From the IMG/VR virus record IMGVR_UViG_3300042975_000097: a DNA stretch of 64,000 nucleotides; one strand, 5' to 3'. The position numbers were made by a program, and so were the translations under genes. Under the pieces are notes generated by a model. It worked only from the letters and a program-made list of their open reading frames with translations. It was not told the origin of the DNA and searched no databases. Numbering within the stretch: position 1 is the first letter of the stretch; every line of letters starts with the position of its first letter. This document shows, piece by piece, positions 18,457-37,477 of the stretch. This DNA is from a virus. Lineage: Duplodnaviria; Heunggongvirae; Uroviricota; Caudoviricetes.

Positions 18457-18467
18457 GGGGGGGGGGG
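18457..18467 (+). repeat. homopolymeric G11 tract 8 nt upstream of ATG 18475
   Basis: GCGGAC-GGGGGGGGGGG-ACATCAT-ATG. Candidate slipped-strand phase-variation site in the RBS/5' region. Confidence 0.9.
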
Positions 18468-18474
18468 ACATCAT

Positions 18475-19263: not shown

Positions 19264-19412
19264 TGACGCTCTACGTCGATTACGCTCACACGACAAGTAA
19301 ACGCTTGCCGTATGAGCGTATTTTTTGTGTGACGTCGTGAAAACGGCGTTTTCGATGTGACCATCGCAAAACAGTATTCTGTCGTTCTACGTGGCTTACA
19401 GCGCGCGTGGCT
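19264..19412 (-). repeat. copy C of the ~140-bp structured repeat (inverted), abutting the Dcm promoter
   Basis: Reverse complement matches copy A (...GCTGTAAGCCACGTAGAACGAC...AATACGCTCATACGG...CGTGTGAGCGTAATCGACGTAGAGCG). Confidence 0.7.
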
Positions 19413-19443
19413 CACTGCCCGCGCAAGTTGATATAATGCCCGT

Positions 19444-22353
19444 ATGACCATGAAATACATCAGCGTGTTCAGCGGGATCGAAGCGGCCACGGCCGCATGG
19501 TCGCCGCTGGGATGGAAACCGCTCGCGTTCAGCGAGATCGAACCGTTCCCGAAGGCGGTGCTCGCCGCCCATCACCCGGACGTCCCCGACCTTGGGGACA
19601 TCACGAAGGTCGACTGGTCCCCGTACGCGGGCAAGGCCGACGTGCTCGTCGGCGGCAGCCCATGCTTCCCGGCGGGCACGCTGGTGCTCGCCGCGGACCG
19701 GTTGACGCCCATCGAGGACATCCGGGTCGGCGACATGGTGCTCACGCATCGCAACCGTTGGCGTCGTGTGACGGCGGTCGGCTCCAAGACGTCGGCGACG
19801 ATCACGGTCGCCAGCGATGGCGTTACCGTGGAGTGCACACCTAACCACCCGTTCTACGCCGAGTCCGATGAAGGCGCCGACTCTCCCCGCGAGTGGGTGC
19901 GCGCGGACGCGATGGCCGGCCGTCGCTGGCTCACCGTGAACGCGCTGGCGGACCCGCTGCCCACGCCGGCCATGGTGAGCGCCGATGGCGAGGCTGGTCG
20001 AACGTTCGAGGTCGTGGGCCGGGCGCTAGCGAGCGGCGGCGACGCGGACGTGTATCATCGCGGCTGGGCCTGGCTGTTCATCCGCGCCGACGGGCCGACG
20101 GTGCCCGCGTGGGTGTTCGCCGCTCGCGTGGAGTGGCGCGCAGCGCTGAGCCGCGGGTATCATGCGGTCGCCAGCGGTTCGCCGACCCCTGCGGTCGTGG
20201 CGGCCATGCGCATCATCGACGCCGGTCTTCACGGGAACGACGCGGATGGTGATTGGGGAAGCGTGCGATCGTTGTCACGTTCGCGCGATCATGTCAAAGT
20301 ATATAACCTGGAGGTAGAGGATGACCATAGTTACACAGCGGACGCTATCGCAGTTCACAACTGCCAGTCGTTCAGCATCGCCGGAACAAGGGCAGGGCTC
20401 AACGGGGCCAGCGGGCTCATGTGGGAGTATGTCCGGGCGGTTCGAGAACTCCGTCCTCGTTGGTTCCTCTGGGAAAATGTCCCGGGGGCGCTCTCCAGCG
20501 CGCATGGGGAGGATTTCAGATGTCTCCTCACGAGCATGGATGAGCTCGGGTATGGTCTCTCATGGCGAGTACTGGACGCGCAGTTCTTCGGAGTGGCCCA
20601 GCGACGCCGTCGCGTGTTCCTTGTCGGACATCTTGGAGACGAACGCTCCGGCGAAGTATTATTTGAGCCCGAGAGCCTGCGATGGGATACTCCGTCGAGC
20701 AGAGAAAAGAGGGAAGGCCTTACCCGAGGAACTCAGAACGGCGTTGGAGAAGCAAGCGAACCCCGACTGAACCACCATACATGGGAGATCGCCGGGAACA
20801 TCATCGGCAGGCAGGAGAAGAACGGCGGCCATCAATTAGGCATCGTCGACCCCGATAAGACCGGCGCGTTCACGCTCACGACCGCCGACAGGCACGCGAT
20901 CGCTGATTGCCTGACTCCATGGGACAATCAGGGACGCCGACTGTACCGCCCGGATGGCGTATACCCGGCATTGGATGCGAGGACCGGCAACGCGGGCGGC
21001 GACGCGCGGGCGGTGATGACGAACTACGGAAGCGACATCGCCGGCACGCTCACGCGCCGTTACGATTCATCGCCGTGCGCGGACCGCGGGCAGAACATCG
21101 TGCTCGCAGCCGGTTTCAGCGCCGGCCAATCGCAATTTGCCGGCTCGATAGGGTACGAGCACGAGATGACGCCGACGCTCAGGGCGAGCGGATCGGGAAC
21201 GAATCAAGTGCCGACGGTACTGGTGAAGACCGATGACCCGAAGCGCGATCAGCCGACGATCGCGTTCGCCGCTAACCAGCGTGATGAGGTGCGCGACCTT
21301 CATGACCTTGCGGGAACACTCGCCGCCCAGCCGGGAATCAAGGGGCAGACGTACGTTATTCCCGAGAACGCCGCCGACCCGGTGCGCGATCGAGAGGTCG
21401 AGATGCGTAACCTTCATGACCCGGCCGCCGCGATCGCCGCCGAATCAGAGGAATCCACCATCATGTGCCGCGCGGGCGGTCAGGTGAACAGCGAGACCGA
21501 CCGTGACCTGTCGCCAACGCTCACCACGCATGACGCCAAGGACCCGCATATCATATACCCCGAGCGTACCGGCGCATGCTCCGTGCTCCGTATGCGCGCG
21601 GGGTGCGCGGGCGTCGGCAAGGATGCCCTGATTCAGAACGACGCCAGCGGCACGCTCGCGTTGAACAACGATCAGACGCTGTTCCCTCCGCACGGCGGCA
21701 TCCGTCGACTCACGCCGATGGAGTGCGAGCGGCTCCAAGGATTCCCTACGAGAGTGAAGCTTGACGTTTCGGCAATGACCGAGGCCGACATCGCCGCGAA
21801 TCTGCTCGCCGGCGGCGTCATCGCCATCGACCTTGACGATGACGCCGTCCACGCGCATACGGCCGATGGCGATCAGGTGGTCACGACCCCGTTCGTGGAC
21901 GCTATCATGGACGGCGCGCATCACCGCATCCGCACGGACAGGCTCGCTTACCAGTTCGCTTTCGGCGCCATCCCCGATGGCATGGTCATCGTCCATGACG
22001 ATCATGACGAGTCGAACAATCACCCCGACAACTTGTCGCTGGCGCCCGTGGACGATGCGCCCGCGACCGATGACGGGTCGGCCGTCGATGCGCCGACGGT
22101 GACGATGCCGGTCTCGTTCACGCATGATTACATGTCATCATGGTCGACGTACCGTGATCTGGCCGCGTGGTACGGCATCGATGGCGAGCGTATCGACTCC
22201 ATCGTCAGCGAGCGCGGCTGGACGGACATCCCGTGGCATGGCAAGGATCACGCGGCCGACGCGCCGAGGTACCGCGCGCTGGGCAACTCCATGTGCGTTC
22301 AGGTGATGCGCTGGCTTGGCGAGCGCATCGCCCGCGCCGATGCCATGGACTGA
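19444..22353 (+). CDS. Dcm-type DNA cytosine-C5 methyltransferase precursor with an intein in motif IV and an HNH-like insertion between motifs IX and X
   Basis: Extein motifs: I VFSGIEAA; IV GGSP|intein|CQSFS; VI WENVPG; VIII QRRRVFLVG; IX RRLTPMECERLQGFP; X YRALGNSMCV. HNH-like VHDDHDESNNHPDNL at roughly 21960-22040. Leaderless-type promoter TTGATATAATGCCCGT-ATG. Confidence 0.8.
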   Translation: MTMKYISVFSGIEAATAAWSPLGWKPLAFSEIEPFPKAVLAAHHPDVPDLGDITKVDWSPYAGKADVLVGGSPCFPAGTLVLAADRLTPIEDIRVGDMVLTHRNRWRRVTAVGSKTSATITVASDGVTVECTPNHPFYAESDEGADSPREWVRADAMAGRRWLTVNALADPLPTPAMVSADGEAGRTFEVVGRALASGGDADVYHRGWAWLFIRADGPTVPAWVFAARVEWRAALSRGYHAVASGSPTPAVVAAMRIIDAGLHGNDADGDWGSVRSLSRSRDHVKVYNLEVEDDHSYTADAIAVHNCQSFSIAGTRAGLNGASGLMWEYVRAVRELRPRWFLWENVPGALSSAHGEDFRCLLTSMDELGYGLSWRVLDAQFFGVAQRRRRVFLVGHLGDERSGEVLFEPESLRWDTPSSREKREGLTRGTQNGVGEASEPRLNHHTWEIAGNIIGRQEKNGGHQLGIVDPDKTGAFTLTTADRHAIADCLTPWDNQGRRLYRPDGVYPALDARTGNAGGDARAVMTNYGSDIAGTLTRRYDSSPCADRGQNIVLAAGFSAGQSQFAGSIGYEHEMTPTLRASGSGTNQVPTVLVKTDDPKRDQPTIAFAANQRDEVRDLHDLAGTLAAQPGIKGQTYVIPENAADPVRDREVEMRNLHDPAAAIAAESEESTIMCRAGGQVNSETDRDLSPTLTTHDAKDPHIIYPERTGACSVLRMRAGCAGVGKDALIQNDASGTLALNNDQTLFPPHGGIRRLTPMECERLQGFPTRVKLDVSAMTEADIAANLLAGGVIAIDLDDDAVHAHTADGDQVVTTPFVDAIMDGAHHRIRTDRLAYQFAFGAIPDGMVIVHDDHDESNNHPDNLSLAPVDDAPATDDGSAVDAPTVTMPVSFTHDYMSSWSTYRDLAAWYGIDGERIDSIVSERGWTDIPWHGKDHAADAPRYRALGNSMCVQVMRWLGERIARADAMD
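19663..20361 (+). other. intein (233 aa, Hint domain, no obvious LAGLIDADG motif)
   Basis: Starts CFPAGTLVLAADRL (block A) directly after GGSP. Ends VYNLEVEDDHSYTADAIAVHN followed by C of CQSFS (blocks F/G, HN + Cys). Confidence 0.7.
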
Positions 22354-22375
22354 CCAGTAGGTGCACGCCCGGCAT

Positions 22376-22440
22376 GACAACGACGAAGCGCCGTGAGCAC
22401 GACTCGAAATCGTGTTCACGGCGCTTCGTCGTTGTCATCG
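22376..22440. terminator. long near-perfect palindrome (25-bp stem, 11-nt loop) between convergent genes
   Basis: GACAACGACGAAGCGCCGTGAGCAC-gactcgaaatc-GTGTTCACGGCGCTTCGTCGTTGTC, one mismatch. Generates the mirrored artefact ORFs 22205-22438 and 22167-22544. Confidence 0.5.
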
Positions 22441-22492
22441 CTGGCCTTCGCCGGCATCCTTGCTCATGCGCGCGTCGGCAGTGTCCGCAGCG

Positions 22493-22831
22493 TTATCGTC
22501 CACCGTCGAGCGCGCTGACGTCGATGCCGGCGTCAGCGAAATGACGGCGGATGATGGCGTCGAGCGGACCGCCGTCCGGGATCATGCCGACGGGTTCGCC
22601 TAGACCATCGGCCTCCACGGGGATGACGGACCAGCCCTCGCGCTGGTTCGCGTATCGTCTGATGGCCATCTTCGTCCGCAGCGGCGATCGGACCACGATC
22701 GTGTACACCGTCGGCAGTCCGGCTGCGTTCTCCGCGGTCGGCTCGCTCATCGGCCTGACGTCGAACAGCACGGTCTCGTCGATCGTCATGGAATGGTTAC
22801 TTGTATGCTTCTCGTTGTTCTTGTTCATGTG
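22493..22831 (-). CDS. hypothetical small protein
   Basis: MNKNNEKHTSNHSMTIDETVLFDVRP.... No RBS evident, start uncertain. Confidence 0.3.
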   Translation of the reverse strand, partial: HMNKNNEKHTSNHSMTIDETVLFDVRPMSEPTAENAAGLPTVYTIVVRSPLRTKMAIRRYANQREGWSVIPVEADGLGEPVGMIPDGGPLDAIIRRHFADAGIDVSALDGGR

Positions 22832-23195
22832 GCCTACGATAGCATCGATCGGTTCGCGACACGCCGGCGAGCGCGGATTGGTCACACGCTCGGCATCATG
22901 GCCAGCAGGGCGCTGACCCCATTGGAATCGTCGGCTCCGAAGCGGCGTTCCAGCCATCCATCCATGGTCGTGCTGAAATTCAACGCGGCATCGAGCGCCC
23001 ACACCGCCGTCCTCGTCAACGGGTCGTTCGCGTCGATGCGGTCGCCGCACGCCATTGATTCGCATACGACCCGGATGCCGGCGGCGGCGTCAAGTGGTCG
23101 CCGGCACCGGGAACGCGATGGGCGGCCGACCCCGTTATGGAGTCCGACCGCCCATCATCTGATCTTACCGACCGGGCATCACCCGATCACGCCGT

Positions 23196-24431
23196 TCAGT
23201 ATTCCATGTCACCGTAGTCGGCGGCGGCGGCATCATACGATTCATAACCGGCCGCTTTGACGACGCTCGGGGATACCAGCTGCCCGTTGGCGCACCGTTC
23301 GGCGACGTCATCCGTGAAAGCGGCCCATGACGCCTTGTCGCGATGCGCCCGCGCCCATGCAAGCACCAGATTCGCATCGGTATCGTAATTAAGTTTACGG
23401 ATGTAGGCGACGTTATCGCCGTGGCTGGTGAGTTTGCCGGCGAGCGCGTGCTTCTGCTCGTCTGTCAGCTTCACCGACCGGTCGATCATATCGACGTAAT
23501 CCTTCGCCTTCACGCCTTCTGGTCGTTCGCGGGCGGCTGCCGACCTCGCGTACAGATGTAGCCGATCATTGGCGAACCATACCCCCGAACCGTAGGCATT
23601 GGTCATGTCGCGAACCGTCCAGTGGACCTTCCTGAGCGCGTACCGTGTGATGGCCTCACGTTTCGGGTTTTTCGTCCCGCCGTATGCCGGTGTGTAGCCG
23701 GCGATGCGGCTGAGCGACAGCCGGTGCTGGTTGTCCTTCCCGGTCCTGTCGATGATGCGCTGGGAGAGTGCTATCGACGAGCCGTGATCGCCGTCGTCAT
23801 ACCCTGCCGACCGGACGTGCGCGCGTTCCACCGAGTTGACGGGCTTGTCGGCATCGTAGTCGATGAGGTCGTTCGCCAGTTCCGGGGTGATATCGTGGCG
23901 TTCGGCGAGCCGAGCGGCGAACTTGTATCCAAGCCAACGACGGCCATGCTGCCCGCGCACCATGTCCATGGCATCCTCGTCACCCGATGGACCATCGATG
24001 TCGATGCCGTCGGCGAGTATTTCCAACGCCTCGTCATGACGGGAGGCCAGTTCGTCCTTCCTGTATTCTTTCTCCGTGCTTGTGATGCTGACCGCGTTGA
24101 ACGCGGCGTACAGGGACTCGTTATCGTAATCGCCGGACTTCACGAGGTCGCGCAGGTCGCTGATGGCGGCATCCGCCTCGGTTATCTCGGCGTCGACCAC
24201 GGCGCGCCAGCGTTCGGCCTCGGCGTCCTCACGACGCTGCTTCGCTCCCTTGCGCATGACGCCGAGCTTGACGGCGTAGAGTTCGTTGTACGCCTCCATG
24301 TATGCCTGCGCCTGATCCTTGGTGTACTCCTTATGCTCCGTGTGGTACGGGCATTTCGACTTGTCCTTCGCGCGGCACTGGCTGATGGACTTGTCCGCCT
24401 TCACCCCGTATGTGATCTTCTGCTCGGTCAT
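23196..24431 (-). CDS. hypothetical protein with N-terminal Cys/His motif (CRAKDKSKCPYHTEH)
   Basis: RBS AGGAGG 6 nt before ATG (MTEQKITYG...); 411 aa. Confidence 0.5.
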   Translation of the reverse strand: MTEQKITYGVKADKSISQCRAKDKSKCPYHTEHKEYTKDQAQAYMEAYNELYAVKLGVMRKGAKQRREDAEAERWRAVVDAEITEADAAISDLRDLVKSGDYDNESLYAAFNAVSITSTEKEYRKDELASRHDEALEILADGIDIDGPSGDEDAMDMVRGQHGRRWLGYKFAARLAERHDITPELANDLIDYDADKPVNSVERAHVRSAGYDDGDHGSSIALSQRIIDRTGKDNQHRLSLSRIAGYTPAYGGTKNPKREAITRYALRKVHWTVRDMTNAYGSGVWFANDRLHLYARSAAARERPEGVKAKDYVDMIDRSVKLTDEQKHALAGKLTSHGDNVAYIRKLNYDTDANLVLAWARAHRDKASWAAFTDDVAERCANGQLVSPSVVKAAGYESYDAAAADYGDMEY

Positions 24432-24649
24432 CGCTTCCCTCCTGCTATGTATTTCCAATCATCGGTAGCCATCGTTCGCTATCACCGGTTCATCTAACGG
24501 TAGGGCGTGGCGAGGACATGGAGAACAAGTGTCTGGAGCCGACTGTCCATGCCTTCAGCATCGTCGCCCGCATGGGCTTCGCGGGTTTCCGATCGCGTGC
24601 GGCTTCTCATCGTCATCGCGGAATACGAGAAACTAATCGTCGGCAGCAT

Positions 24650-25897
24650 TCATCGACTCCGCACCCCGAGGTCGGCCAGCAGCCCCAAGCCCTCATCGGC
24701 ATTCCCGTCGATCACCTCGTCCGCCAGCGAGGACAGCAGCGATTCCAGATCGGCGTTCAGAGCGGCAAGCATCGTCAACGTCTCGCCGACATGACCGTCC
24801 CCGGCGGCGCTGTCAGCGGTCAGCGACGCGCGGCGGATGCGGGCGTTGGCGATGCGCAGCCCCATGATGTCGAAGCCGGCGAACGCCGACGTGAGACCGC
24901 GGCGGACGATGGCGGCGGCATCGATGTAGGGCCAGCCGAACAACCCGTCATGGAGAGCGGGGTCGCCGGCGCCGACGGCGCTCAGGGGAAGAGCGAACGT
25001 GTAGGTATACCCGGAGCCATCGGAGTCGCAGAGCGATGATGGTAGCGAGCAGAGTCGTCGGCGGATGACCGGCGCGCCATCATCGCCATCGGCATCGATC
25101 ATGGCCGCGGCGCCGAGAACCTGCATGAACATGTCGTCATGATGACGATCGGCAAGCGAACGACCGTACTGGACGCCGAGCGAGCGCAGCGCGGACATCG
25201 CGTGCGCGTGGTCGGCGGCGAACCCGCCTGCGGCGGCCTTCGCCCGGCGTGACTGCTCCGCCAGCGCGACGGCCTGCTCGGGCGTTCCCAGCCGGCCATC
25301 GTCGGCGGGCGCGTACTTGGCGCGCATCCGTCTCATGGCGCGGTGACGGGTGGCGGCGCGCATCGCCGGTATGGTGGTCGCCCATTCGGCGTCGGTCGGC
25401 AAAGTCATCGGTCCGCCGATGATCGGCCGGCTTTTCGACATGGTGGCTGATACCGCGATGTCCAGCGCCTTCATCAGGGTCTTCGTGACGGTCGCGCCGA
25501 TGCTCTTGCTGTCGCAGCCATCGAACATGGTCTTGACTGCGGCGTCGACGAAGAATTTGGGAACGTCGAATCCAGTCGGCGGATCATCGTTTCCGTACGG
25601 CGAGATCACGTCCGGCCATGAGCCGTCCGCGGTTCCCGGCGTTGTCAATGCGAGCAGGTATGGCCGGTGATGATCGTGTCTTGTCGCCAACCCGTAAGCG
25701 ATCAGCATGGGATCGGATCCCAGCCGCTCGGCAGCGGTCATCTCGTTGATGTTCTGAACATAGAACTTCACTGCCGCTGCGTGGGCGGCCGTTGACAGTT
25801 CCGTCCTCCTCTTTTTGATCTCGTCGTTCAATCGCTTCGCCGACGCGATCATGGACGGCAGGTCCTGCTCTTCATGGTTTTCCTGTTGTATTGTCAT
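24650..25897 (-). CDS. hypothetical protein P1 (paralog of 31832-33244)
   Basis: 415 aa. Shares DRHHDDMFMQVLGAAA...TYTF with P2 (DRYHDDMFVQFLGASA...TYSF). Confidence 0.5.
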   Translation of the reverse strand: MTIQQENHEEQDLPSMIASAKRLNDEIKKRRTELSTAAHAAAVKFYVQNINEMTAAERLGSDPMLIAYGLATRHDHHRPYLLALTTPGTADGSWPDVISPYGNDDPPTGFDVPKFFVDAAVKTMFDGCDSKSIGATVTKTLMKALDIAVSATMSKSRPIIGGPMTLPTDAEWATTIPAMRAATRHRAMRRMRAKYAPADDGRLGTPEQAVALAEQSRRAKAAAGGFAADHAHAMSALRSLGVQYGRSLADRHHDDMFMQVLGAAAMIDADGDDGAPVIRRRLCSLPSSLCDSDGSGYTYTFALPLSAVGAGDPALHDGLFGWPYIDAAAIVRRGLTSAFAGFDIMGLRIANARIRRASLTADSAAGDGHVGETLTMLAALNADLESLLSSLADEVIDGNADEGLGLLADLGVRSR

Positions 25898-26815
25898 GTC
25901 CCCAGTGGTATCACGGCATCGCCGGCGAAACGCCGTTGCGCGCGCATAACATCCATCACGCGATGCCCCAGTGGTCGCGGTACTCCTTGTCGAACTCGGA
26001 GATGGCCTTCAGCGCGGACTGGTCGCCGGGGGTGGGCGCCGCGGTCGATGAGCGCGTTCGCCTTCCCCACGAGTTCATGGAATCTGGCGGCGACGTACTC
26101 GTCGGTCCGTATGCCGCCGTCGCTGGAGAACACGGTCGGCTCGTCGGCGAGCGCGGCCGCGCACTCGCCGAACTTCGCCGACGCGCGGTTCTCCGGCGCG
26201 AGTTCGTCAAGACCGGCGTGCTCGTCCGCGTACCGGGTGAGCGCGGACTCGATGTCGGAGCCCATGCGGGCTCTCTCCATGATGGTGAGCGGGCGGTCGA
26301 ACCCGTAATCGCCGAGCACCACCTCCGCCGCGCGGGATGATTCCGGGGTGGACAGCATGACCTGGGTAGGCCTCCACGAGCCTGATCGGGTTCACCGGCT
26401 CGTCATCGCCCGCGCCGTCGGCGACCCACTCGCTCAGCCTGAACGCGGCGTCATCCGGTGCGATGTTGGCGAACACGGCGACGTCGCGGACCCACCGGAC
26501 CACGGCCGCCGCCGCCTCCTCGGCGCTCGACGCCGATTCCAGGCCACCGGGCACCGGCGTCGCCGTGAGTGAGAACCCGTCCTCGATGGACCGGGCGATT
26601 CCCTCGGCGCCGGGGTCGGGGTGCGCGCGCATGTACTCCGCGAACTCGTCCACACGGGCCATGGCGACCAGCCGGGCCACGCCCTTGGCGGCCGTCAGCG
26701 CGGCCGCGCCGTCGGCGTCGTCATCCTTCGCGCCATTGGCGGCGAGCACGTAGCGCACGCTCGCGTCATACCAGTCCCTCAACTCGTCCTCGCTCATCGC
26801 CCGGCCCCCTGACGT
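25894..26815 (-). pseudogene. hypothetical protein gene with apparent frameshift near 26340-26400
   Basis: N-terminal part (MSEDELRDWYD...) is in the frame of ORF 26207-27016. Protein-like continuation (LSTPESSRAAEVVLGDYGFDRP...) is in the frame of ORF 25894-26358. The stop sits 3 nt from the next gene start. Confidence 0.3.
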
Positions 26816-26923
26816 GCCCATACCTGATGATCTCATCATGAGTATACCGTGCGCGGTTGCGTGACGTCGCCGCGGCGTGCTATCATGGGCATCGAACGCC
26901 ATGCTCGGCAGGAGGCAATCACT

Positions 26924-27163
26924 ATGAAGACCATCATCGTGCCAGTGGAGTCGATGCTCGCACCGACCCCCGTCTACTCGTTCCCATCGGCATACGGTTC
27001 CATCGACGTGTATCACGCCAAGGCCAGCGGTTTCGCCGTCATCGCCCGCAGGGCCGACTCGGCCGCGGATGCCATGGGCGAGTTGCTCAGGTCATTCGCC
27101 GGCGACGAGGACGCTGTTGATTACGCGCAGGACATGGCGGTGATGCTCGGAGCGCTGGCATGA
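26924..27163 (+). CDS. small hypothetical protein (79 aa)
   Basis: RBS AGGAGG before ATG (MKTIIVPVESMLAP...). Stop overlaps the next ATG (ATGA). Confidence 0.4.
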   Translation: MKTIIVPVESMLAPTPVYSFPSAYGSIDVYHAKASGFAVIARRADSAADAMGELLRSFAGDEDAVDYAQDMAVMLGALA

Positions 27164-27430
27164 GCGGGGTCTCGCGGGCGACGGACGGCGGCGCGGACGC
27201 GAACGCCGGACCGGTGGATGATGATGACAGGGAACTCGAGGCGGCGCTGCGCGGCGTCATCGAGGAGCGGCTTGCCGGCCTGGGCGACGCGGAGCGGAAC
27301 GACGCGATGCTGGCGGCGCTGGCGGCCGCCGCCGACGGTGGTGCGGTCGATGGACCACGCTGGCATCGTCGACGTGGCCAGCGTGGTCGCCGAGGCCTGC
27401 GAGGCGCGCGCGTCATGAGGGAGGTCGGGA

Positions 27431-28414
27431 TTGACTTTTTACAAACCAGAGTATGGGTGGGTTCGCTGGAAGTGGCCGAGCCGATGGTCCGCGGCGCGGA
27501 TGTTCTCCGGATGGATCGCTGCGGCCGGCGTTACCGGCATCGTCATCCGCAGCGAGAACGATCCGTTCGCCGCACCGTTCGATGGCGTAGATCGTATGTG
27601 GCCGGCTACTTATGATCAGAAAAGTGCTTCGGATAGGAGAGCGAAGAGCATCAACGCCGAACTGTCGAACACCATGATCCGCGTGACCGCAAACAAGTAT
27701 GTCACTTCGATGGTGATAACCGGCCAGTATGTGTTCTCCGACCCCATATGTTATCATAGAGAGCAGCCACGCATCCGCATAGGCGATGACGAGTACCGGT
27801 ATGCTGCGGTTGCGCTGTCGAGGCACATGGTCATCGATCAATGCGATGACATGCCCGGAAACGATGTGCTTACGACCCGTGACCGTGAAACGTTGATGCG
27901 TGGCCTGATCGGCATGATCAGTATGTCTCCGCGGAAACGAAAGCAGTTCGCGAGCATCATCACGCATGTGTCGTTGACGACCGACCCGGCGTCGTTCCTC
28001 ACGGGCAGCGAGGACGGGACGGTAACGCCTTCGAACAATCGCGATCGCCGGCGGGCGGCGACATTCATCGACCATATGAGGAAGACCCGGGATGGACTCC
28101 GGCCGATCATGCCGGGCGCCATCATGGAACTGGCCGACCGGTATGTCGGCATGGCCGATGAGTCGGCCGAACTGATTCCGACCGCCATCGACCGGTCGGC
28201 GATCGACACCATCGAGGACGCGATGCTATCACTCGATGCGCTCGCGTTCACGGCAAGGAGTACGAGACTCGCCGGCGAGGGCCGCCGGCTTGATGCCGCG
28301 CTCGCCGCAGCAATGCGCGACATCGAACTCATGGACGGCGAGCACGCGCGGCGCGGGCGCGAGGTCATCGACTCGGCGCTGGCGACAGAAAGGGAACGTG
28401 AGCATGTTCGGTAG
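27431..28414 (+). CDS. tandem paralog family, copy 1 (divergent N-terminus, TTG start after RBS GGGAGG)
   Basis: Shares ...GITSITIRSPFDPYER.../...GVTGIVIRSENDPF..., AELSN(I/T)M(F/I)R, and C-terminal RDIELM..EH..RGR.VIDSALAT.REREHVR with copies 2-4. Confidence 0.55.
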   Translation: MTFYKPEYGWVRWKWPSRWSAARMFSGWIAAAGVTGIVIRSENDPFAAPFDGVDRMWPATYDQKSASDRRAKSINAELSNTMIRVTANKYVTSMVITGQYVFSDPICYHREQPRIRIGDDEYRYAAVALSRHMVIDQCDDMPGNDVLTTRDRETLMRGLIGMISMSPRKRKQFASIITHVSLTTDPASFLTGSEDGTVTPSNNRDRRRAATFIDHMRKTRDGLRPIMPGAIMELADRYVGMADESAELIPTAIDRSAIDTIEDAMLSLDALAFTARSTRLAGEGRRLDAALAAAMRDIELMDGEHARRGREVIDSALATEREREHVR

Positions 28415-29441
28415 GAAGAAGAAAGTCGTTAAGAGCGAGCCTGACGTCGTGCGTCACAATAAGGCTTACCCGGTGATGACAGTGAACATCGATGAGATGA
28501 ATGCCGATGACGAGTCGTTCCGCAACTGGATTCACTCGGCTGGAATCACAAGCATCACCATTCGCAGCCCGTTCGACCCGTATGAGCGTAAGGACATGGG
28601 GCTGCCGGGGCAAGGCGATAACATCAGTCATGAAAGTTACGATATGATGTCGGCTGAGATTAACGCGGAGTTGTCGAACATCATGTTCCGGATCATTGGC
28701 TCCCGGTACCGCACCTCGATCCTAGTCAATAACGGCTACTGGGTCAGGGCTAACTACGTAAGTCCAAGTTTTCGTATCGATCATGACGAGTACATACTCC
28801 GGAGCATGGTACACGCAAAACCCGATAACAACAATGGCTTCGACTACTGGCTATCCCAGTGCGATGACGCGCCCGGCAATGATGCGCTCGACGTATTCGA
28901 GAGAACGGAACTCGGCAAGGCGATGACATGGTTCATGGAGGCCAGCCCTGAGGAGCGGAAAACATACGCGGACATCATCACATGGGTGGGACCGGACGTC
29001 AAACCGGTGGCGTTCCTCACCGGTAGTGGTAAGAACGTCGCGCCGGCAAGGCTGATCGAGCGCGCTGAGGATTACATGAGACATATCCATGCGAGCCGCG
29101 CCGGCATCCCCGAAGCAACGCCGGATGACATTGCGGACATCGCCGACGGTTACGTGGCGAACGCGGAGTCAGCGATGACGATGATGCGTGAACCGAAACC
29201 AGCCGGCAACGCGGACTGGAACGCCATCGTCGACGTCATCGACAAGGCCATGTCCGACATGGATGCGCTCGTGTTCGCCACGAGCACCATGACGATGGAG
29301 AACGAGAACAGACGTCTCAGGCTGGCGCTTGTCGACACGATCCGCGACATAGAACTCATGAGCAGCGAGCATGAGCAGCGTGGCCGCGCGGTCATCGACT
29401 CGGCGCTGGCGACAGGAGGGGAGCGCGAGCATGTTCGGTAG
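28404..29441 (+). CDS. tandem paralog family, copy 2 (intact; MFGRKKKVVKSEPDVVRH...)
   Basis: ATG lies inside ATGTTCGGTAG, which also holds the TAG stop of copy 1. 345 aa. Confidence 0.6.
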   Translation: MFGRKKKVVKSEPDVVRHNKAYPVMTVNIDEMNADDESFRNWIHSAGITSITIRSPFDPYERKDMGLPGQGDNISHESYDMMSAEINAELSNIMFRIIGSRYRTSILVNNGYWVRANYVSPSFRIDHDEYILRSMVHAKPDNNNGFDYWLSQCDDAPGNDALDVFERTELGKAMTWFMEASPEERKTYADIITWVGPDVKPVAFLTGSGKNVAPARLIERAEDYMRHIHASRAGIPEATPDDIADIADGYVANAESAMTMMREPKPAGNADWNAIVDVIDKAMSDMDALVFATSTMTMENENRRLRLALVDTIRDIELMSSEHEQRGRAVIDSALATGGEREHVR

Positions 29442-30465
29442 GAAGAAGAAAGCCGCGAAGAGCGAGTCGGACGTCGTGCGTCACGATACCGATTACCCGG
29501 TGATGGCAGTGACATCGATGAGATGAATGCCGATGACGAGTTGTTCCGCAACTGGATTCGCTCGGCGGGGATCACGAGCATCACCGTTCGCAGCCCGTTC
29601 GACCCGTATGAGCGCAGGGGACATGGGGCTGCTGGCGCGGACAGAGCGATAGACATCAGCCATGAAAGTTACAACATGATGTCGGCTAAGATTAACACGG
29701 AGTTGTCGAACATCATGTTCCGGATCATCGGCTCCCGGTACCGCACCTCGATACTGATCGATAACGGCTACTGGGGCAGCAGTATCTCCCGACCCCAGCT
29801 TTCGCATCAATCATGACGAATACGTATACCATAGCATGGCAAAAGTACGCCATGGTGACGGCGATTACCTGTACTGGCTATGCCAGTGCGATGACGCGCC
29901 CGGCAATGATGCGCTCGACGTATTCGAGAGAACGGAACTCGGCAAGGCGATAACCTGGTTCATGGAGGCCAGCCCGGAGAAGCGGAAGACATACGCGGAC
30001 ATCATCACATGGGTGGGCCCGGACGTCGACCCGGTGGCGTTCCTCACCGGTGATGGTATGAACGCCGCGCCGGCAAGGCTGATCAACCGGGCGGACGTGC
30101 TTATCGAGCACATGGAGCACGCACGCGATTCGATGTCATCGACCATGCCCGATGACATCATGGGCATGGTCGATGCGTGTATGAACACGGCGCATACGGC
30201 GGCGTCAGCGCTTCGTACGCGATCATTGGCGGACGTCGACTGGAACGATCAGATGGACATCATCGACACGTCCGCGACCAACCTTGATGCGCTCGTGTTC
30301 GCCGCAAGCACCATGACAATGGCAAATGAGAGCAGACATCTTAGGATGGCGCTTGTCGACACGATCCGCGACATAGAACTCATGAACAGCGAGCATGAGC
30401 AGCGTGGCCGCGCGGTCATCGACTCGGCGCTGACGACAGGAAGGGAACGTGAGCATGTTCGGTAG
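29431..30465 (+). pseudogene. tandem paralog family, copy 3, inactivated by a -1 and a +1 indel
   Basis: N-terminus in frame 1 stops after ...VMAVTSMR*. Conserved middle (ORF 29523-29816) is in frame 0. C-terminus (29836-30465) is back in frame 1. Indels are at GTGAACATC->GTGACATC and TATTCCCG->TATCTCCCG relative to copies 2 and 4. Confidence 0.6.
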
Positions 30466-31456
30466 GAAGAAGAAAGTCGTGAAGAGCGAGCCTGACGTCG
30501 TGCGTCACGGTAAGGCTTACCCAGTGATAACAGTGGACATCGACAATACAGATGCCTACTCCGAGTTGTTCAAGAACTGGATTAACTCGTCGGGGATCAC
30601 GAGCATCACCGTCCGCAGCCCGTTCGACCCGTATGAACGCGGGGATATGGGGCTGCTGGCGCGACAGGGCGATGACATCAGCCATGAAAGTTACAACATG
30701 GCGTCGGCTAAGATTAACACGGAGTTGTCGAACATCATGTTCCGGATCATTGGCGCCCGATACCGCACCTCGATACTGGTCGATAACGGCTACTGGGGCA
30801 ACAGTATTCCCGACCCCAGCTTTCGCATCAATCATGACGAATACGTATACCATAATATGGCAAAAGTATGCCATGGTGACGGCGATTACCTGTACTGGCT
30901 ATGCCAGTGCGATGACGCGCCCGGCAATGATGCGCTCGACGTATTCGAGAGAACGGAACTCGGCAAGGCGATAACCTGGTTCATGGAGGCCAGCCCGGAG
31001 AAGCGGAAGACATACGCGGGCATCATCACATGGGTGGGCCCGGACGTCGACCCGGTGGCGTTCCTCACCGGTGATGGTACGAACGCCGCGCCGGCAAGGC
31101 TGATCGAGCGCGCGGATATACTCGTCGAGCACATGGAGAAAATCCGGGGAACGCTGACGACCGTCCCCGACGACATCATGGCAACGGTTGACAAGTACTT
31201 CGGAACCGCGAGATCGGCCCTGACCATCATCCACTCGCCGGCGACAACACCCTCCGCCAGCCGCTCATGGAACGATCTGCTTGACATCATCGAACATTCG
31301 ATGATGGCCGTCGACGCGCTGGCGATGACCGTGATGACATCGAATCTCGCACAGTCGAACAAGGCAACTGGACATGGCGTTCGCCAGCGCGATTCACGAT
31401 ATCGAACTCATGGACGGCGAGCACGCAGCCAAACCGAACCGCAGGCATGTTCCCTA
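30455..31456 (+). CDS. tandem paralog family, copy 4 (C-terminal frameshift/truncation)
   Basis: Conserved to ...NLAQSNKA. The family C-terminus (LDMAFASAIHDIELMDGEHA...) continues in the +1 frame and ends at TAG 31454-31456. Confidence 0.5.
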
Positions 31457-31831
31457 GAAGACGACCGTCTGAGTTCTCGTTAACGCCTGAGCCGATCACC
31501 CGGTGATCGACGGCGGCGATGTGATGCCGGGCAATGGCGCCGACATGCTATCATCAATCGACAACGCCCGAGTACGAACGCACGAACCGCGAGCACGGCT
31601 CGAAGCCATGACCGGACAGTATGAACCCATCGATGACCTCGCGGAGCTCCGCGCTCGGGTATGTCGAACGTTCACGCGCTTGATTCCATGTCAGCCCGTC
31701 ATCGGCGCAGATGCCAAGCCAATCGCTATCGGCCGTCGTCGTGTAAGCGAACGGCCGACCCTCGTACCCGTTGTCGTTTAAGAGCGGAAGATACCAGCCG
31801 ACCGAAAGCGGCCGACCGGTCGATCCTCGGC

Positions 31832-33244
31832 TCATGATCGGGGCGCTGGCATGAGCGAAGCCGCCATCTCAGCCAACTTCGTCAGCTCGTCGGCGCCCGC
31901 GGCTCCAGTCAGATCGGCGATGCCCACATTCAGCGTGTCGATGGCGTTGATGATCGCAGACGATTGTTCACTGTACTCGATCCCCCGGGAGAGTTCGCGC
32001 ACGGCCTCGATCTCGGCTCGCAGCAGCGCGTCCTCAAGCCCCTCCTCCGTCAACGTCGCCGCATCGGCGTCACGCCAATCCGAATCGATGCCCATGGTGA
32101 ATGAGTACGTGAGCGTACAGCCGCTCCACTCGGCGATACTGCCGCTCAGCATCGCCAGCGTGGGCCAGCGGTCGGGCTCGTCGACGTAACCGAGCCACTC
32201 GCCCTGCGCGGACGCTCCGAGGAACTGTACGAACATGTCATCGTGATACCGGTCGACGATCAGTCGAGCGATATCCACGCCAGCGAACGCGAGCGCGCCC
32301 ATTTCCGGCCGGTGATTATCCATGAACGCGTCGGCCACCGCACGCGCCGTCCGTGACTTGCCCACGAGCAGTTCACGGTCGGACTCGGCGAGTTTCGGCG
32401 GCCGGCGAGCGTGATCGTCACGGATGCCGCGCTCGATGCGATGGCGAAGGGCGGCGAACGCCTCATCCAGCGCGCGGGCGTCACACGCGGCGAAGCACGC
32501 GTTCCCGGACGGGTACGAGGCCACGTTCACCGAGGCGAGCGCCCGGTCGACGTCATACGTCGGCGTTCCCGGAACCGGAACCGGTGCCGATGGTCTCGCG
32601 TCGCGCGGCGTCGGCATGGCCCACGGGTACGGGGCGACGTACCTGGGCTTGACGCCGCCCGTAGCCTTTTCGTGCCGGAGGAACCGTGACAGGTCATCCG
32701 GGTGCCCGTTCGTCACCGCGCCGATGACGGCGACGTCGAACGCGAGCGACATGACTTCGAGTACCCGTTGCCGAATCTCGTCGACATTCATCGTCTCAGC
32801 GAGCGCGAGCGTAACCGCGCCGGCGCGCTCGATGTTCGGCAGGGCGGCGCGGTTATCGAGCTTGAACCCGGTCATCAACGATCCCACGCGTCTGGTTTCC
32901 TTGACCGGCCAAGCGCCATCGTCGCCGATGTCAAGCGGATCGATGCCGGTAAGCGCGTACGCGGCGCGCGAACGATCGTCGATCGATGCCAGTCGGCGGT
33001 CGATGGCGTCGCCGGTGTGGTGTGCCGTCGGCCGATCTGCTCCCCACACCGTGTCCCCGGCGATGGTCTCGATGTCGAAGCCCCTGCGCCAGGCCGCGTC
33101 AACGGCGTCGGCGCGACGGTCGATGTAGTCATGGCGCGCAGTGACGGCGGCGTCGACGAGCGCCCGGCGCATGTCGCGTATGGTCGTGCCGAGCCCACGT
33201 TGGCGTTCCAGCAGTTCCCTGATCCCGTTCCTGTTATCGGTCAT
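31832..33244 (-). CDS. hypothetical protein P2 (paralog of 24650-25897)
   Basis: 470-aa ORF. Shares the DRYHDDMFVQFLG region with P1. Confidence 0.5.
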   Translation of the reverse strand: MTDNRNGIRELLERQRGLGTTIRDMRRALVDAAVTARHDYIDRRADAVDAAWRRGFDIETIAGDTVWGADRPTAHHTGDAIDRRLASIDDRSRAAYALTGIDPLDIGDDGAWPVKETRRVGSLMTGFKLDNRAALPNIERAGAVTLALAETMNVDEIRQRVLEVMSLAFDVAVIGAVTNGHPDDLSRFLRHEKATGGVKPRYVAPYPWAMPTPRDARPSAPVPVPGTPTYDVDRALASVNVASYPSGNACFAACDARALDEAFAALRHRIERGIRDDHARRPPKLAESDRELLVGKSRTARAVADAFMDNHRPEMGALAFAGVDIARLIVDRYHDDMFVQFLGASAQGEWLGYVDEPDRWPTLAMLSGSIAEWSGCTLTYSFTMGIDSDWRDADAATLTEEGLEDALLRAEIEAVRELSRGIEYSEQSSAIINAIDTLNVGIADLTGAAGADELTKLAEMAASLMPAPRS

Positions 33245-33651
33245 GTGATGGCTCCTTGTTCTCTCGATGTATCGGCTCTTACCCGTTCCCCATCATACTA
33301 CCGCCGACATGCCGATGACGCGAAACAGCGGCGATCACGACGATGCCGGCTGGCGTGTGATGCCGAGCGCTGCGGTCAGGTAACCGTTCACTTGTTCGCG
33401 GGCCTCGCTCGCGGCCATGCCGTCCGCGAGCGGCGGCAGCGCCGGGTCGGGCCATGAGCCGTCCTCGGCGAGGTCGCCTAGTTGGATGCCGGCGAGCACG
33501 TAATCGGCTCGGCGCCGAGAATCAGCGGCATTCATGGCCGCGGCGATGGCGTGGGTGAAGCGTCCCGGTGAGACGGATGGCCCGTGTAACGGCGGTCCAG
33601 CGACCGGCTGGTGGCAGGAACGGGCGACGACGCTGGCGACCGATGCCGTGC

Positions 33652-33790: not shown

Positions 33791-33891
33791 TGGTCAACGA
33801 TCGTCGGCGAGGTTTTCACCGGTTCGCACCGTTCAACCGCGCGCAGGCGTCCCGGTCGACCTGATGGCGTTCGCCGGCGAACCGGCGACGG

Positions 33892-34981
33892 TCACCGGAT
33901 TCCCCGTTTCCGTTGTCCGTCGGCGTAGGGTGCGGCGCCGGCTGTCCCGCTGGTCTCACCACCCGTTTGCCCCGGTGCCGTGGCAAGCCGTCTGATCGCG
34001 GCGTACAGCCCGCCGGCATCCGTCGGCGACAACGAGGCGACGGCCTCGCGCATGTTCCCGCCGACGCCGCCCGGAAGCAACGCCGACAACGCGGACTCGA
34101 CATCATGCGCGGACGGTTCATCGACTGCCACCCGGCGTTCGATCGCGCCGCGCTCGGTGCTCACCATATCGACCGGACTGGACCATGACGCCCTCTCATG
34201 GAACGTGGCTTCGAGTTCACGGTTCGTGTACGACGTGGGCGCGAGCCCGATGGCGGTGCGGGCATAGTCGCCATCATCGTCCAGTGTGACCTGTCCGGCC
34301 GGCTTGCTGTACAGGTTGTTTCTCGGCTCGTCGAACATCGGTTTCGGTGAGAGCAGGTCATCGAACGATTCGCCGTGATCGTTCACCACCGATGTGGTCC
34401 TGTGTCGGCGCGCGGTGGAGAGCAAGTCGACAAGACCCCCCGGCGCAGAGCAGCGATGACATGACTGCGAGGAAAGCGAGGAGGGCTGTGGGCGCCGATT
34501 GACTAAGTATTGCGATCGCGACGAACGGACCGGCGGTAACCGCAGCGGCAATCAAGAATGGCAGCGGCAATAGCTTGGATATGTTGCGCCATGGAACGGA
34601 GCGGAGGTGCGTATGATACTCGTAGAACGTTCCATCCGATGCGGCGTCATCAAGATACCGGTCATGGCATCGTCGATCGCGTCCGTTCACGATGTAGCAC
34701 CAGCGGGCGATGCGGTAGGCGTCGTTGTTATAATCGTCCAGCGACACGCGGCGACGCTGGACGGGGATGCCATCATGGCCCAACCGGCCGATCGCGTCGG
34801 GGAACTGATCGCATATGCGGGCGATCACGGCGCCGGGATCGTCCAAATACCCGCCGGTGAGCATATACTCGGCGTCATCTCCCGTGCCGTACCTGCGCGC
34901 GACCCACTTGTTCACGTTCCCCTTGTCCACGGCCGCGAACATGTCATCGGCCCTGGCGTCGTGCCTGTGCCTGAACCACAT
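33892..34981 (-). pseudogene. hypothetical membrane-anchored protein gene split by a C6/G6 homopolymer frameshift (possible phase variation)
   Basis: ORFs 34358-34981 and 33892-34551 fuse into one ~360-aa frame (…LLCAGG|LVDLLSTARRH…) if one nucleotide is removed from the C6 run at 34436-34441. Confidence 0.4.
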
Positions 34982-35890: not shown

Positions 35891-35959
35891 TTGACTCCTC
35901 CTCAGCCATGTTTCTTTATCTCCTTCGGTTCACATTTCATCGCCATGAGCGTTCTTCAT

Positions 35960-36120
35960 TTGACTTCTCCCCACGGCTAAAACCGGGGGATTCCAAGCCC
36001 TAGTGAGACATGCGCCTCCGGCACAGCGTCCGGGTGGCGTCTTACGGTCTCATGGGATTCAGGGACAAGTCCTGCCCTGGTGAGCATGTTCACAGCCGCG
36101 TTCTTATCACGGTCCTTCAC
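35960..36120 (-). ncRNA. predicted omega RNA of TnpB (scaffold over the tnpB 3' end and right end)
   Basis: Placed by established TnpB biology. The conserved right-end sequence shared with copy 3 supports a structured 3' element. Confidence 0.35.
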
Positions 36121-37245: not shown

Positions 37246-37477
37246 GCAAATCATTATACCACAGTACGCGCAGAACCAACACAACGCATAAGAAAGGGGC
37301 GGCTTACCCCAGTCTTAAAAGGCGGGGCTTGCGCCGCCATTGCCGGTCATATCCTCCTGATAGGTGTTATCAACAGCCGACCGGCGGCCGCCATGTACGA
37401 TGGCGATCGCCGACCGGCATGACACCAATGATAGCACGAACCGCCGACCAGTACCGCGGCGCGCCGGCGACGGGCGT

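What the first reader, a model, noticed from the sequence alone, without database searches (positions are those of the whole stretch)
24650..33244. Candidate uncharacterised multigene locus: four-copy tandem paralog array, coupled by overlapping stop/start codons, flanked by two large paralogous proteins
Four ~1-kb paralogs (27431-31483) are joined head to tail.

Each junction is ...GAG CAT GTT CGG TAG, where the downstream gene's ATG TTC GGT AGG (MFGR) overlaps the upstream TAG stop.

Copy 1 has a divergent N-terminus and a TTG start. Copy 3 carries compensating -1/+1 indels. Copy 4 carries a C-terminal frameshift. So the array is actively decaying or diversifying.

The array is bracketed on the opposite strand by P1 (24650-25897) and P2 (31832-33244). 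These share DR(H/Y)HDDMF(M/V)Q(V/F)LGA...TY(T/S)F and are otherwise unannotatable.

An upstream 411-aa protein (23196-24431) has a Cys/His N-terminus.

This looks like the variable-cassette arrays found in polymorphic toxin/immunity or defense islands, but no family could be assigned.
Basis: partly seen in the sequence, partly recalled or inferred. Interest (0 to 1): 0.75.

Follow-up and report, generated by a model that had tools for sequence, protein, structure and literature searches.

The report
Recombining tandem gene array, giant actinobacterial element
Four head-to-tail copies of a previously undescribed gene sit on a roughly 346-kb phage- or plasmid-like element of an uncultured actinobacterium; the copy number changes between strains by unequal recombination, but what the proteins do is unknown.

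Summary
Four ~1.03-kb paralogs lie at 27431-31483. They are joined by three exact CATGTTCGGTAG stop/start overlaps, and a degenerate fourth overlap ends the array.

The family has no Pfam, PHROG, PADLOC, NCBIfam, PDB or fold match. It is found almost only in one clade of ~346-kb elements: 18 clusters among 5.8 billion proteins.

Related assemblies carry 2, 4 or at least 5 copies. The extra copy is a D/C chimera, which is what unequal crossing-over produces.

A near-identical second genome has no differences from the window over 8.5 kb upstream. It has 101 substitutions plus 9 indels across the module itself (two small genes, the array, p93 and P2). So the module is a polymorphism hot spot.

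Most frameshifts are private to this assembly. The five in copy 3 each sit at an allelic SNP, which suggests consensus artefacts from a strain mixture.

P1 is a true paralog of P2, but it is deleted in several relatives.

I found no toxin, immunity or defence signature. My best reading is a lineage-specific, translationally coupled gene "accordion" with a variable helical C-terminal domain. A host-interaction or counter-defence role is inferred, not shown.

The parts
26924..27163 (+). p79, the first small gene of the plus-strand operon. The ORF is open from 26849; the conserved start is at 26924.
   Evidence: 91-97% amino-acid identity in L001-3, L011 and L012, always directly upstream of the array. 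No Pfam hit for the L011 orthologue above threshold.
27160..27434 (+). p92, the second small gene (90-93 aa in relatives). In the window it is frameshifted by +G at 27351 and +T at 27397. Its TGA stop overlaps the TTG start of copy 1.
   Evidence: Intact 90-93-aa ORFs in L001, L002, L006, L011, L012 and L018. Indels mapped. TTGA overlap shown.
27431..28414 (+). Copy 1 (type A), 327 aa, the divergent first paralog, with a TTG start preceded by GGGAGG.
   Evidence: 100% identical to the L006 copy and 64-86% to the first copies of L001, L011 and L012. Always the first unit of the array.
28404..29441 (+). Copy 2 (type B), 345 aa, intact.
   Evidence: Identical to P0001. 99% identical to the second copy of L006.
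29431..30465 (+). Copy 3 (type C), broken in the window by five 1-nt indels within 29510-29785.
   Evidence: Intact 343-aa orthologues in L004, L006 and L007. Indels mapped. Each indel coincides with an allelic SNP.
30455..31483 (+). Copy 4 (type D), the terminal copy. A +G at about 31362 shifts the frame; the intact form would stop at 31457 within CATGTTCCCTAG.
   Evidence: Intact 333-342-aa orthologues P0004, P0005, L004 and L018. Indel mapped. Terminal motif.
31554..31835 (-). p93, a small gene convergent with the array and overlapping the stop of P2.
   Evidence: 97-99% identity in L001-4, L012 and L013. No family hit.
31832..33244 (-). P2, 470 aa, a conserved convergent neighbour of the array.
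   Evidence: Present downstream of the array in every locus long enough to show it, at 77-96% identity. Only 4 homologue clusters in the database. No Pfam, PHROG, PADLOC or credible PDB match.
24650..25897 (-). P1, 415 aa, a distant paralog of P2. It is an accessory gene, not a conserved partner of the array.
   Evidence: BLASTP E = 4e-15 against P2. Full length only in the window and L018. Reduced to a remnant of about 100 aa in L001-3, L011 and L012.
25959..26797 (-). Homologue of a 279-aa gene, divergent from the operon. It is split by two +1 insertions in C runs (about 26366 and 26032).
   Evidence: The same split is present in L018 (123 + 196 aa; sequence identical to the window).

Best explanation
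**What it is.** The array is a lineage-specific tandem expansion of a previously undescribed protein family. The element is a roughly 346-kb extrachromosomal element (jumbo phage or megaplasmid) of an uncultured actinobacterium.

**The proteins.** Each unit encodes a soluble, acidic protein of about 340 aa. It has a conserved alpha/beta N-terminal part and a much more variable C-terminal bundle of long helices.

**The operon.** The units form one operon with two small upstream genes. Each downstream start codon lies inside the last codons of the upstream gene (ATGTTCGGTAG), behind a purine-rich Shine-Dalgarno-like stretch. The copies are therefore probably translated in a coupled way (inferred).

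**How it changes (shown).**
- The array grows and shrinks by unequal homologous recombination between copies.
- Segments are homogenised or swapped by gene conversion and by exchange between strains.
- The whole module (p79, p92, array, p93, P2) is the polymorphic hot spot of an otherwise near-identical genome.

**Likely role (inferred, low confidence).** A host-interaction or counter-defence function. The conserved N-domain would carry the common activity or scaffold. The variable helical domain would give each paralog its own target. Copy number and alleles would be tuned by an arms race, as in a natural gene accordion.
For: **Array and junctions.**

**Rarity and novelty.**
- Only 11-18 clusters among 5.8 billion proteins, and 6 representatives among 1.84 billion.
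- No Pfam, PHROG, PADLOC or PDB match.
- No fold match.

**Copy number.**
- 2 copies in L001-3, L011 and L012.
- 4 in the window and L018.
- At least 5 in L006.
-.

**Unequal crossover.** The fourth copy of L006 and L007 matches type D at 100% for about 240 nt. It is then 100% identical to the neighbouring C copy.

**Mosaic copies and gene conversion.**

**Variable region.** It maps to residues ~225-345, which are helices in both AF2 models.

**Selection.** dN/dS is 0.5-0.8 with ORFs kept open. dN is 5-10 times that of the flanking genes.

**Hot spot.** Window versus L018:
- 0 differences in 8.5 kb upstream.
- 101 substitutions plus 9 indels in 26905-33456.
- About 7 substitutions in the next 6 kb.
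-.

**Composition.** Array GC is 58.6-58.9%, against 66% in the flanks.

**The element.**
- Two contigs of 347,100 and 346,143 bp carry the same genes.
- The same contig carries a GHKL rIIA-like gene, rIIB, NT5C, CrgA and FtsK/SpoIIIE.
- rIIB is closest to Streptomyces phage proteins.

**Neighbourhood.** It holds DNA methyltransferases, an RNA ligase and a cytidylyl/NMN-adenylyltransferase-like gene. A jumbo-phage review treats RNA ligases and NAD+ synthesis enzymes as ways to counter host defences, and DNA base modification among conflict-related adaptations (PMC7824862).
Against: - There is no functional evidence at all: no homology, no confident fold (pLDDT 60-64), no expression data.
- dN/dS stays below 1, so positive selection is not demonstrated. 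Relaxed constraint would explain the fast evolution equally well.
- Several copies and neighbours are broken in various assemblies, which fits a dispensable locus.
- Part of the window-versus-L018 'hot spot' may be inflated by chimeric consensus in the window assembly.
- Phage versus plasmid is unresolved. No capsid, terminase or relaxase was seen in the roughly 100 kb inspected.
Confidence: 0.55

Rival explanations
1. Polymorphic toxin/immunity or host defence cassette array. The paralogs would be immunity or effector cassettes kept for exchange.
For: Conserved junction sequences, a variable C-terminal part, copy-number variation and mosaic recombination resemble orphan-cassette arrays.
Against: - No toxin, immunity, trafficking (Rhs, LXG, WXG and similar) or defence HMM hit in the array or within about 10 kb.
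- The only Hint / PT-HINT signal is the intein inside the C5 methylase.
- Units are uniform 330-345-aa proteins with no alternating small immunity ORFs.
- There is no upstream full-length toxin gene in the same orientation.
- The locus is on a giant mobile element.
Confidence: 0.07
2. Paralogous virion-associated or ejected (internal) proteins of a jumbo phage, diversified in tandem in the way head or ejection protein families are in giant phages.
For: - The element carries rIIA-like and rIIB genes.
- Types B-D share a conserved basic N-terminal peptide, MFGRKKK..SE.DVVRH, that could act as a targeting or propeptide.
- The comparison with paralogous ejection and head proteins of giant phages rests on recalled knowledge; the one such paper retrieved (PMC5694885) was seen only as a search listing.
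Against: - No PHROG or BFVD match.
- The N-terminal peptide is absent from type A and type E.
- No structural genes lie nearby.
- A phage identity is itself unproven.
Confidence: 0.12
3. Functionally unimportant duplicates: neutral tandem amplification in a dispensable region, now drifting and decaying.
For: - dN/dS of 0.5-0.8 is high.
- Frameshifted copies occur in L012 and L018, and broken neighbours in the window, L013 and L018.
- Many relatives carry only 2 copies.
Against: - ORFs of about 340 codons stay open in copies that differ by 20-55% at the nucleotide level.
- Orthologous types A-D are recognisable across strains.
- dN/dS is below 1 in every comparison.
- Stop/start junctions and Shine-Dalgarno-like stretches are conserved.
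- A distant single-copy relative is conserved elsewhere in the same genome.
Confidence: 0.18
4. The array is an assembly artefact: a mis-assembled repeat.
For: The window assembly does show probable consensus errors inside copy 3.
Against: Tandem arrays with the same junctions are seen in at least eight independent assemblies from JGI, ENA and Logan. The copies are diverged, not identical.
Confidence: 0.01

Closest known systems
Segmental amplification ('genomic accordion') of counter-defence genes in viruses. Examples are T4 tifA amplification under toxIN pressure (PMC9391042) and SegB-promoted amplification of anti-defence loci (PMC13096335), both known here from their abstracts. The poxvirus K3L accordion is recalled from memory.
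   Same: Head-to-tail repeats of a gene-sized unit on a large virus-like genome. Copy number differs between close relatives. Change is generated by recombination between repeats, with chimeric units at the breakpoints.
   Different: - Here the copies are old and diverged (45-80% nucleotide identity), with recognisable orthologous types, rather than fresh identical amplicons.
- The unit is exactly one ORF with a built-in stop/start overlap.
- No link to any defence system has been shown.
Polymorphic toxin / immunity cassette arrays.
   Same: Conserved recombination-prone junctions, variable C-terminal segments, mosaic alleles and strain-to-strain variation.
   Different: No toxin, immunity or secretion domains. 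Units are of uniform size. There is no master gene upstream. The array sits on a mobile element rather than a host chromosome.
Lineage-specific expansions in jumbo phages, for example about 35 zinc-ribbon copies in Bacillus phage G (PMC7824862).
   Same: A family that is otherwise rare or absent is multiplied within one giant element.
   Different: This expansion is small (2 to at least 5 copies plus one distant copy), strictly tandem, and translationally coupled. The fold is unknown.
Bifidobacterium megaplasmids of the pMP7017 type.
   Same: A large actinobacterial element with an RNA ligase next to an NT5C-like gene, orphan DNA methyltransferases, IS200/IS605 TnpA/TnpB and FtsK/SpoIIIE genes.
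   Different: Only about 8 proteins are shared, at 29-42% identity. There is no homologue of the array, P1, P2 or p420 on any PLSDB plasmid.

Membership tests
Polymorphic toxin-immunity cassette array | A full-length toxin gene with an N-terminal trafficking or secretion domain (Rhs/YD, LXG, WXG100, PT-HINT and similar) upstream in the same orientation. | tested here: not met
   Pfam scans of the array proteins, P1, P2, p420 and neighbours found none. The weak PT-HINT/Hint hits lie in the intein of the C5 methylase at 19444-22353.
Polymorphic toxin-immunity cassette array | Alternating toxin-tip and small immunity ORFs belonging to known Tox/Imm families. | tested here: not met
   Units are uniform 327-345-aa ORFs with nothing between them. 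No Pfam hit.
Polymorphic toxin-immunity cassette array | Conserved junction sequence that allows cassette exchange. | tested here: inconclusive
   A conserved CATGTTCGGTAG junction and mosaic copies exist. Any tandem family would show the same.
Known anti-phage defence systems (PADLOC models) | A match to a defence-system protein HMM. | tested here: not met
   0 families for copy 1, copy 2, P0003, P0004, P0025, P1, P2, p420, p93 and p104 at E <= 0.1.
Tandem segmental amplification (gene accordion) | In-register head-to-tail direct repeats of a gene-sized unit. | tested here: met
   Spacing of 1018-1032 nt and three identical junctions.
Tandem segmental amplification (gene accordion) | Copy-number polymorphism among close relatives. 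| tested here: met
   2, 4 and at least 5 copies in syntenic loci whose flanks are 85-99% identical.
Tandem segmental amplification (gene accordion) | Chimeric unit at the recombination breakpoint. | tested here: met
   The fourth copy of L006 and L007 is type D for about 240 nt, then 100% type C, and is followed by a type D copy.
Tandem segmental amplification (gene accordion) | Amplification driven by a defined selective pressure, such as a host defence. | not testable with these tools
   No host, phenotype or expression data are available.
Jumbo phage (the element as a whole) | Genome larger than 200 kb. | tested here: met
   Contigs of 347,100 and 346,143 bp carry the same genes. L018 and L020 both lie on the 346,143-bp contig.
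Jumbo phage (the element as a whole) | Virion hallmark genes: major capsid, portal, terminase. | tested here: inconclusive
   None were found among about 50 window ORFs scanned with PHROGs, Pfam and NCBIfam. Only about 100 of 346 kb could be inspected.
Jumbo phage (the element as a whole) | Phage-type accessory genes (rIIA/rIIB). | tested here: met
   A GHKL 821-aa protein plus a PF26926 rIIB protein lie on the same contig. rIIB matches 2823 phage records, the best being Streptomyces phages at about 40% identity. It also matches 13 plasmids.
Diversity-generating retroelement target | Adenine-biased substitutions plus a reverse transcriptase and template repeat. | tested here: not met
   The substitution spectrum between the window and L018 is rich in transitions and not A-biased. 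No reverse transcriptase was found in the scans.

The most novel reading that the evidence does not exclude
The module (p79, p92, paralogs A-D, p93 and P2) is a new kind of counter-defence or host-takeover system of an uncultured actinobacterial giant phage or plasmid. A shared N-terminal domain would be combined with interchangeable helical specificity domains. Strains would retune the repertoire and dosage by unequal crossing-over and allele exchange. That would make it a naturally occurring, long-lived gene accordion built from a protein fold with no known relatives.
Probability: 0.2. Interest if true: 0.65.

Novelty: new member of a known kind. Interest (0 to 1): 0.4.

Why it matters
**If the functional inference is right.**
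- This would be a natural, population-level example of a tandem gene accordion in a giant bacterial mobile element. So far such amplification has been shown for phages mainly in laboratory evolution.
- It would add a new protein family to the host-interaction repertoire of actinobacterial elements.

**Even without a function.**
- The locus is a clean marker of strain-level recombination. It is the only polymorphic patch between two otherwise near-identical ~346-kb genomes.
- It is a reminder that frameshifts in metagenome-assembled repeats can be consensus artefacts.

**As it stands.** This is an orphan family with a well-documented evolutionary mode and no known activity.

Tried and rejected
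**Family assignment. No credible match from any search.**
- Pfam, PHROGs, PADLOC and NCBIfam.
- PDB sequence searches. The designed-PPR hits to P2 are compositional.
- afdb50 was not available.

**Finding relatives in collections. All empty.**
- GTDB genomes with P2 and with TnpB.
- IMG/VR with P2 and with the array profile.
- JGI metagenome contigs by profile and by the junction motif.
- Phage and plasmid megablast and tblastn.

**Other ideas tested.**
- A link between the array family and the P1/P2 family: hhalign probability 0.6%, rejected.
- DGR-type hypermutation of the hot spot: rejected because the spectrum is not A-biased.
- Close kinship with the Bifidobacterium megaplasmid pMP7017: rejected, only about 8 weak shared genes.
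- Promoter and terminator scan: fewer hits than in shuffles, so uninformative.
- tRNA and Rfam scans: none found.
- Sample accessions were not found in the paper library.
Full report
**1. The observation**

The window has about 62% GC. On the plus strand, four paralogous units follow each other with start-to-start spacings of 1018-1032 nt. They occupy 27431-28414, 28404-29441, 29431-30465 and 30455-31483.

The junction CATGTTCGGTAG occurs at 28403, 29430 and 30454. In it, the ATG of the downstream gene lies 8 nt before the upstream TAG. A degenerate copy, CATGTTCCCTAG, lies at 31446, where the terminal unit would end if it were intact. Shuffled sequence gives no matches.

A purine-rich stretch precedes each ATG: GGGAACGTGAGC or GGAGGGGAGCGCGAGC. 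The end of each gene therefore doubles as the ribosome-binding site for the next. Translational coupling is an inference from this layout.

Copy 1 starts at a TTG that overlaps the TGA of an upstream small ORF (TTGA), behind GGGAGG. This arrangement is conserved in L002 and L006. The N-terminal extension is conserved at the protein level in P0015.

P1 (24650-25897) and P2 (31832-33244) are real paralogs (E = 4e-15).

**2. A new and very narrowly distributed family**

- Copy 2 has only 11 homologous clusters among 5.8 billion proteins.
- A profile search of 1.84 billion cluster representatives found 6.
- A second profile search added a distant single-copy subfamily, 'type E', at about 22% identity.
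- The array proteins, P1, P2, p93, p420 and the small upstream proteins have no match above threshold in Pfam, PHROGs or PADLOC. PDB sequence searches of the array profile, P1, P2 and p420 gave none either.
- Two AlphaFold models (11- and 16-sequence alignments, pLDDT 60 and 64) agree on the layout. There is a disordered N-terminus, an alpha/beta part up to about residue 210, and then three or four long helices from 215 to 335.
- The proteins have no hydrophobic segments and are acidic.
- The motifs QCDDxPGND and HDEY are conserved in types A-D but absent from type E. They are therefore not universal catalytic residues.

**3. The module and the element**

Syntenic loci from ENA, Logan and JGI assemblies (L001-L004, L006, L007, L011-L013, L018) share one order:
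- a 279-aa gene on the minus strand;
- then, on the plus strand, a 79-aa gene, a ~92-aa gene, a type A copy and one or more further copies;
- then, convergent, p93 and P2;
- then two small genes and an RNA ligase.

P1 is full length only in the window and L018. In L001-3, L011 and L012 only its last ~100 codons remain. It is not a conserved partner.

Two contigs of 347,100 and 346,143 bp each carry the copy-2 type, type E and P2. A ~346-kb genome has therefore been recovered twice.

On the 346,143-bp contig, type E lies about 70 kb from the array. Near it are CrgA, an FtsK/SpoIIIE protein, an NT5C-like gene, a GHKL 821-aa rIIA-like protein, a Pfam rIIB protein and TelA.

The rIIB protein matches 2823 phage records. 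The best are Streptomyces phages at about 40% identity. It also matches 13 plasmids.

The RNA ligase has 34-36% homologues on actinobacterial megaplasmids, including Bifidobacterium pMP7017. The rest of pMP7017 shares almost nothing with this element.

No capsid, terminase or relaxase was seen in the parts I could inspect. No relative exists in GTDB genomes, IMG/VR, or the phage and plasmid collections. I therefore call it a giant actinobacterial extrachromosomal element. Jumbo phage versus megaplasmid is unresolved.

**4. How the array evolves**

*Copy number.* It is 2 in five assemblies, 4 in the window and L018, and at least 5 in L006.

*Orthologous types.* They can be followed across strains:
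- window copy 1 is 73% identical at the nucleotide level to the first copy of L001;
- copy 3 is 96% identical to the first copy fetched from L004;
- copy 4 is 94% identical to the second copy of L004.

*Unequal crossover.* The fourth copy of L006 and L007 is 100% type D for its first ~240 nt. It is then 100% identical to the neighbouring type C copy, and a type D copy follows. This is the product expected from unequal crossing-over between D and C.

*Gene conversion.* The single non-A copy of L001 is itself a mosaic. The central 300 nt of window copies 3 and 4 are 98% identical while their 3' thirds are about 45-55% identical. This points to gene conversion.

*Where the variation lies.* Among non-A copies, residues 46-60, 90-104 and 150-209 are 85-94% identical. 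Residues 225-345 are 25-64% identical.

*Selection.* dN/dS between copies, and between orthologues, is 0.5-0.8. For flanking genes it is 0.07-0.46. dN is 5-10 times higher in the array. The proteins evolve fast but remain under some purifying selection. Positive selection is not shown.

*Composition.* The array has lower GC (58.6-58.9%) than its flanks (66%).

**5. A polymorphism hot spot**

L018 and the window were compared over their shared stretch:
- They are identical over 18402-26904 (8.5 kb, no substitution, no indel).
- They differ by 101 substitutions and 9 indels between 26905 and 33456.
- They differ again by only about 7 substitutions over the next 6 kb.

The divergent patch coincides almost exactly with p79 through P2 (26924-33244).

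The substitutions are transition-rich, clustered in short tracts, and about half synonymous in P2. This fits imported alleles rather than targeted A-biased hypermutation.

This is the best evidence that the array operon and the convergent p93-P2 pair behave as one variable unit.

**6. The frameshifts**

Relative to both L006 and L018, the window has private 1-nt indels at 27351, 27397, 29510, 29616, 29652, 29785 and 31362. It also has one at 29638 relative to L006.

In copy 3, each of the five indels sits on or next to a position where the L006-type and L004-type alleles differ. The window's 29507-29848 patch alternates between the two alleles. That is the signature of a consensus built from a strain mixture. 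Both allele types do co-occur in JGI sample 3300051660.

I therefore regard the 'compensating indels' of copy 3 as probable artefacts. The other private indels are unverified.

Real inactivation does happen in this neighbourhood:
- L018 copy C carries a single extra C and is otherwise like the intact L006 copy.
- The second copy in L012 is split.
- P2 in L013 is in three frames.
- The 279-aa gene carries the same two +1 shifts in the window and L018.
- A 377-aa homologue at 33806-34930 is broken in the window.

**7. Interpretation**

*Shown:*
- an orphan family;
- a tandem array with conserved junctions;
- expansion and contraction by unequal recombination;
- mosaicism;
- a variable C-terminal domain;
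- a module-wide polymorphism hot spot;
- location on a giant mobile element.

*Inferred:* coupled translation of the copies.

*Inferred with low confidence:* a host-interaction or counter-defence role. This rests on analogy with viral gene accordions (PMC9391042, PMC13096335). It also rests on a neighbourhood rich in methyltransferases, an RNA ligase and a nucleotidyltransferase. A jumbo-phage review treats RNA ligases and NAD+ synthesis enzymes as counters to host defence, and DNA base modification as a conflict-related adaptation (PMC7824862).

*The toxin/immunity or defence-island reading.* It fails its defining tests. The array family and the P1/P2 family are unrelated.

**8. Verdict**

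This is a genuine and well-delimited feature. The protein family is new. The phenomenon, tandem lineage-specific expansion with recombination-driven variation on a giant mobile element, is a known kind. Interest is moderate. It would rise if a counter-defence activity or a new fold were demonstrated.

Noticed in passing
window 19444-22353 (+): A C5 cytosine DNA methyltransferase interrupted by an intein (Hint / Intein_splicing) and carrying a C-terminal HNH domain. It is conserved in L001, L003 and L018.
   Followed up: partly
window 35903-37345; also 6822-8006 (-) with 8003-8446 (-), and 58321-59781 (+): Three TnpB (Cas12f-like) genes. The one at 35977-37284 sits in a 1.44-kb insertion that is absent from L001 and L004 but present in L018. 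The ORF at 8003-8446 is most similar to an annotated IS200/IS605 tnpA of pMP7017 (38% identity).
   Followed up: partly
window 39247-40380 (-) and 53934-55076 (-): A second paralog pair (377 and 380 aa, 88% identical) lying 14.7 kb apart. It has no family assignment. Homologues lie next to the RNA ligase region in L001, L004 and L011.
   Followed up: no
window 25959-26797 (-): A homologue of a conserved 279-aa gene is split by two +1 insertions in C runs (about 26366 and 26032). The same state is found in the independent 346-kb contig (L018), so this is probably a real pseudogene.
   Followed up: yes
window 33806-34930 (-): A homologue of the L004 377-aa gene is read in three frames in the window (shifts near 34440 and 33910). 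Downstream of P2, L004 carries a 1.6-kb insertion absent from the window, encoding an N_methyl pilin-like protein and a GH6 glycosyl hydrolase.
   Followed up: partly
L020 (346,143-bp contig, positions 118587-139654) and L009: A single-copy distant relative of the array family (type E, 347-359 aa) lies downstream of a DUF285-like 247-250-aa gene. In L009 the two are adjacent; in L020 a resolvase and TnpB lie between them. It is in the same neighbourhood as CrgA, FtsK/SpoIIIE, NT5C, rIIA-like and rIIB genes and TelA.
   Followed up: partly
window 27353-27388 and 31484-31518: An 18-nt-arm palindrome with no spacer (89% complementary) lies inside the p92 gene, right next to the +G indel at 27351. 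A palindrome with 17-nt arms lies between the convergent ends of the array and p93. It may be a bidirectional terminator or a binding site.
   Followed up: no
window 23196-24458 (-): The 411/420-aa protein has an N-terminal C-x7-C-P-Y-H motif and is 85% conserved in L001. A small protein in L009 (106 aa) has a similar C-x7-C-P-W motif. Neither has a family or PDB match.
   Followed up: partly
window 44255-45400 (+), 57033-57929 (-), 60734-62536 (+), 46607-47221 (-): Cell-like cargo is present: a cation-efflux transporter, an SPFH/Band 7 protein, a DUF285 repeat protein of 600 aa, and a cytidylyl/NMN-adenylyltransferase-like gene. This cargo is one reason phage versus megaplasmid stays open.
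   Followed up: no
window 26905-33456 compared with L018: All sequence divergence between two otherwise near-identical ~346-kb genomes in this 22-kb stretch is concentrated in the array-plus-P2 module. P2 itself carries tracts of clustered substitutions (31971-32000 and 32734-32792).
   Followed up: yes
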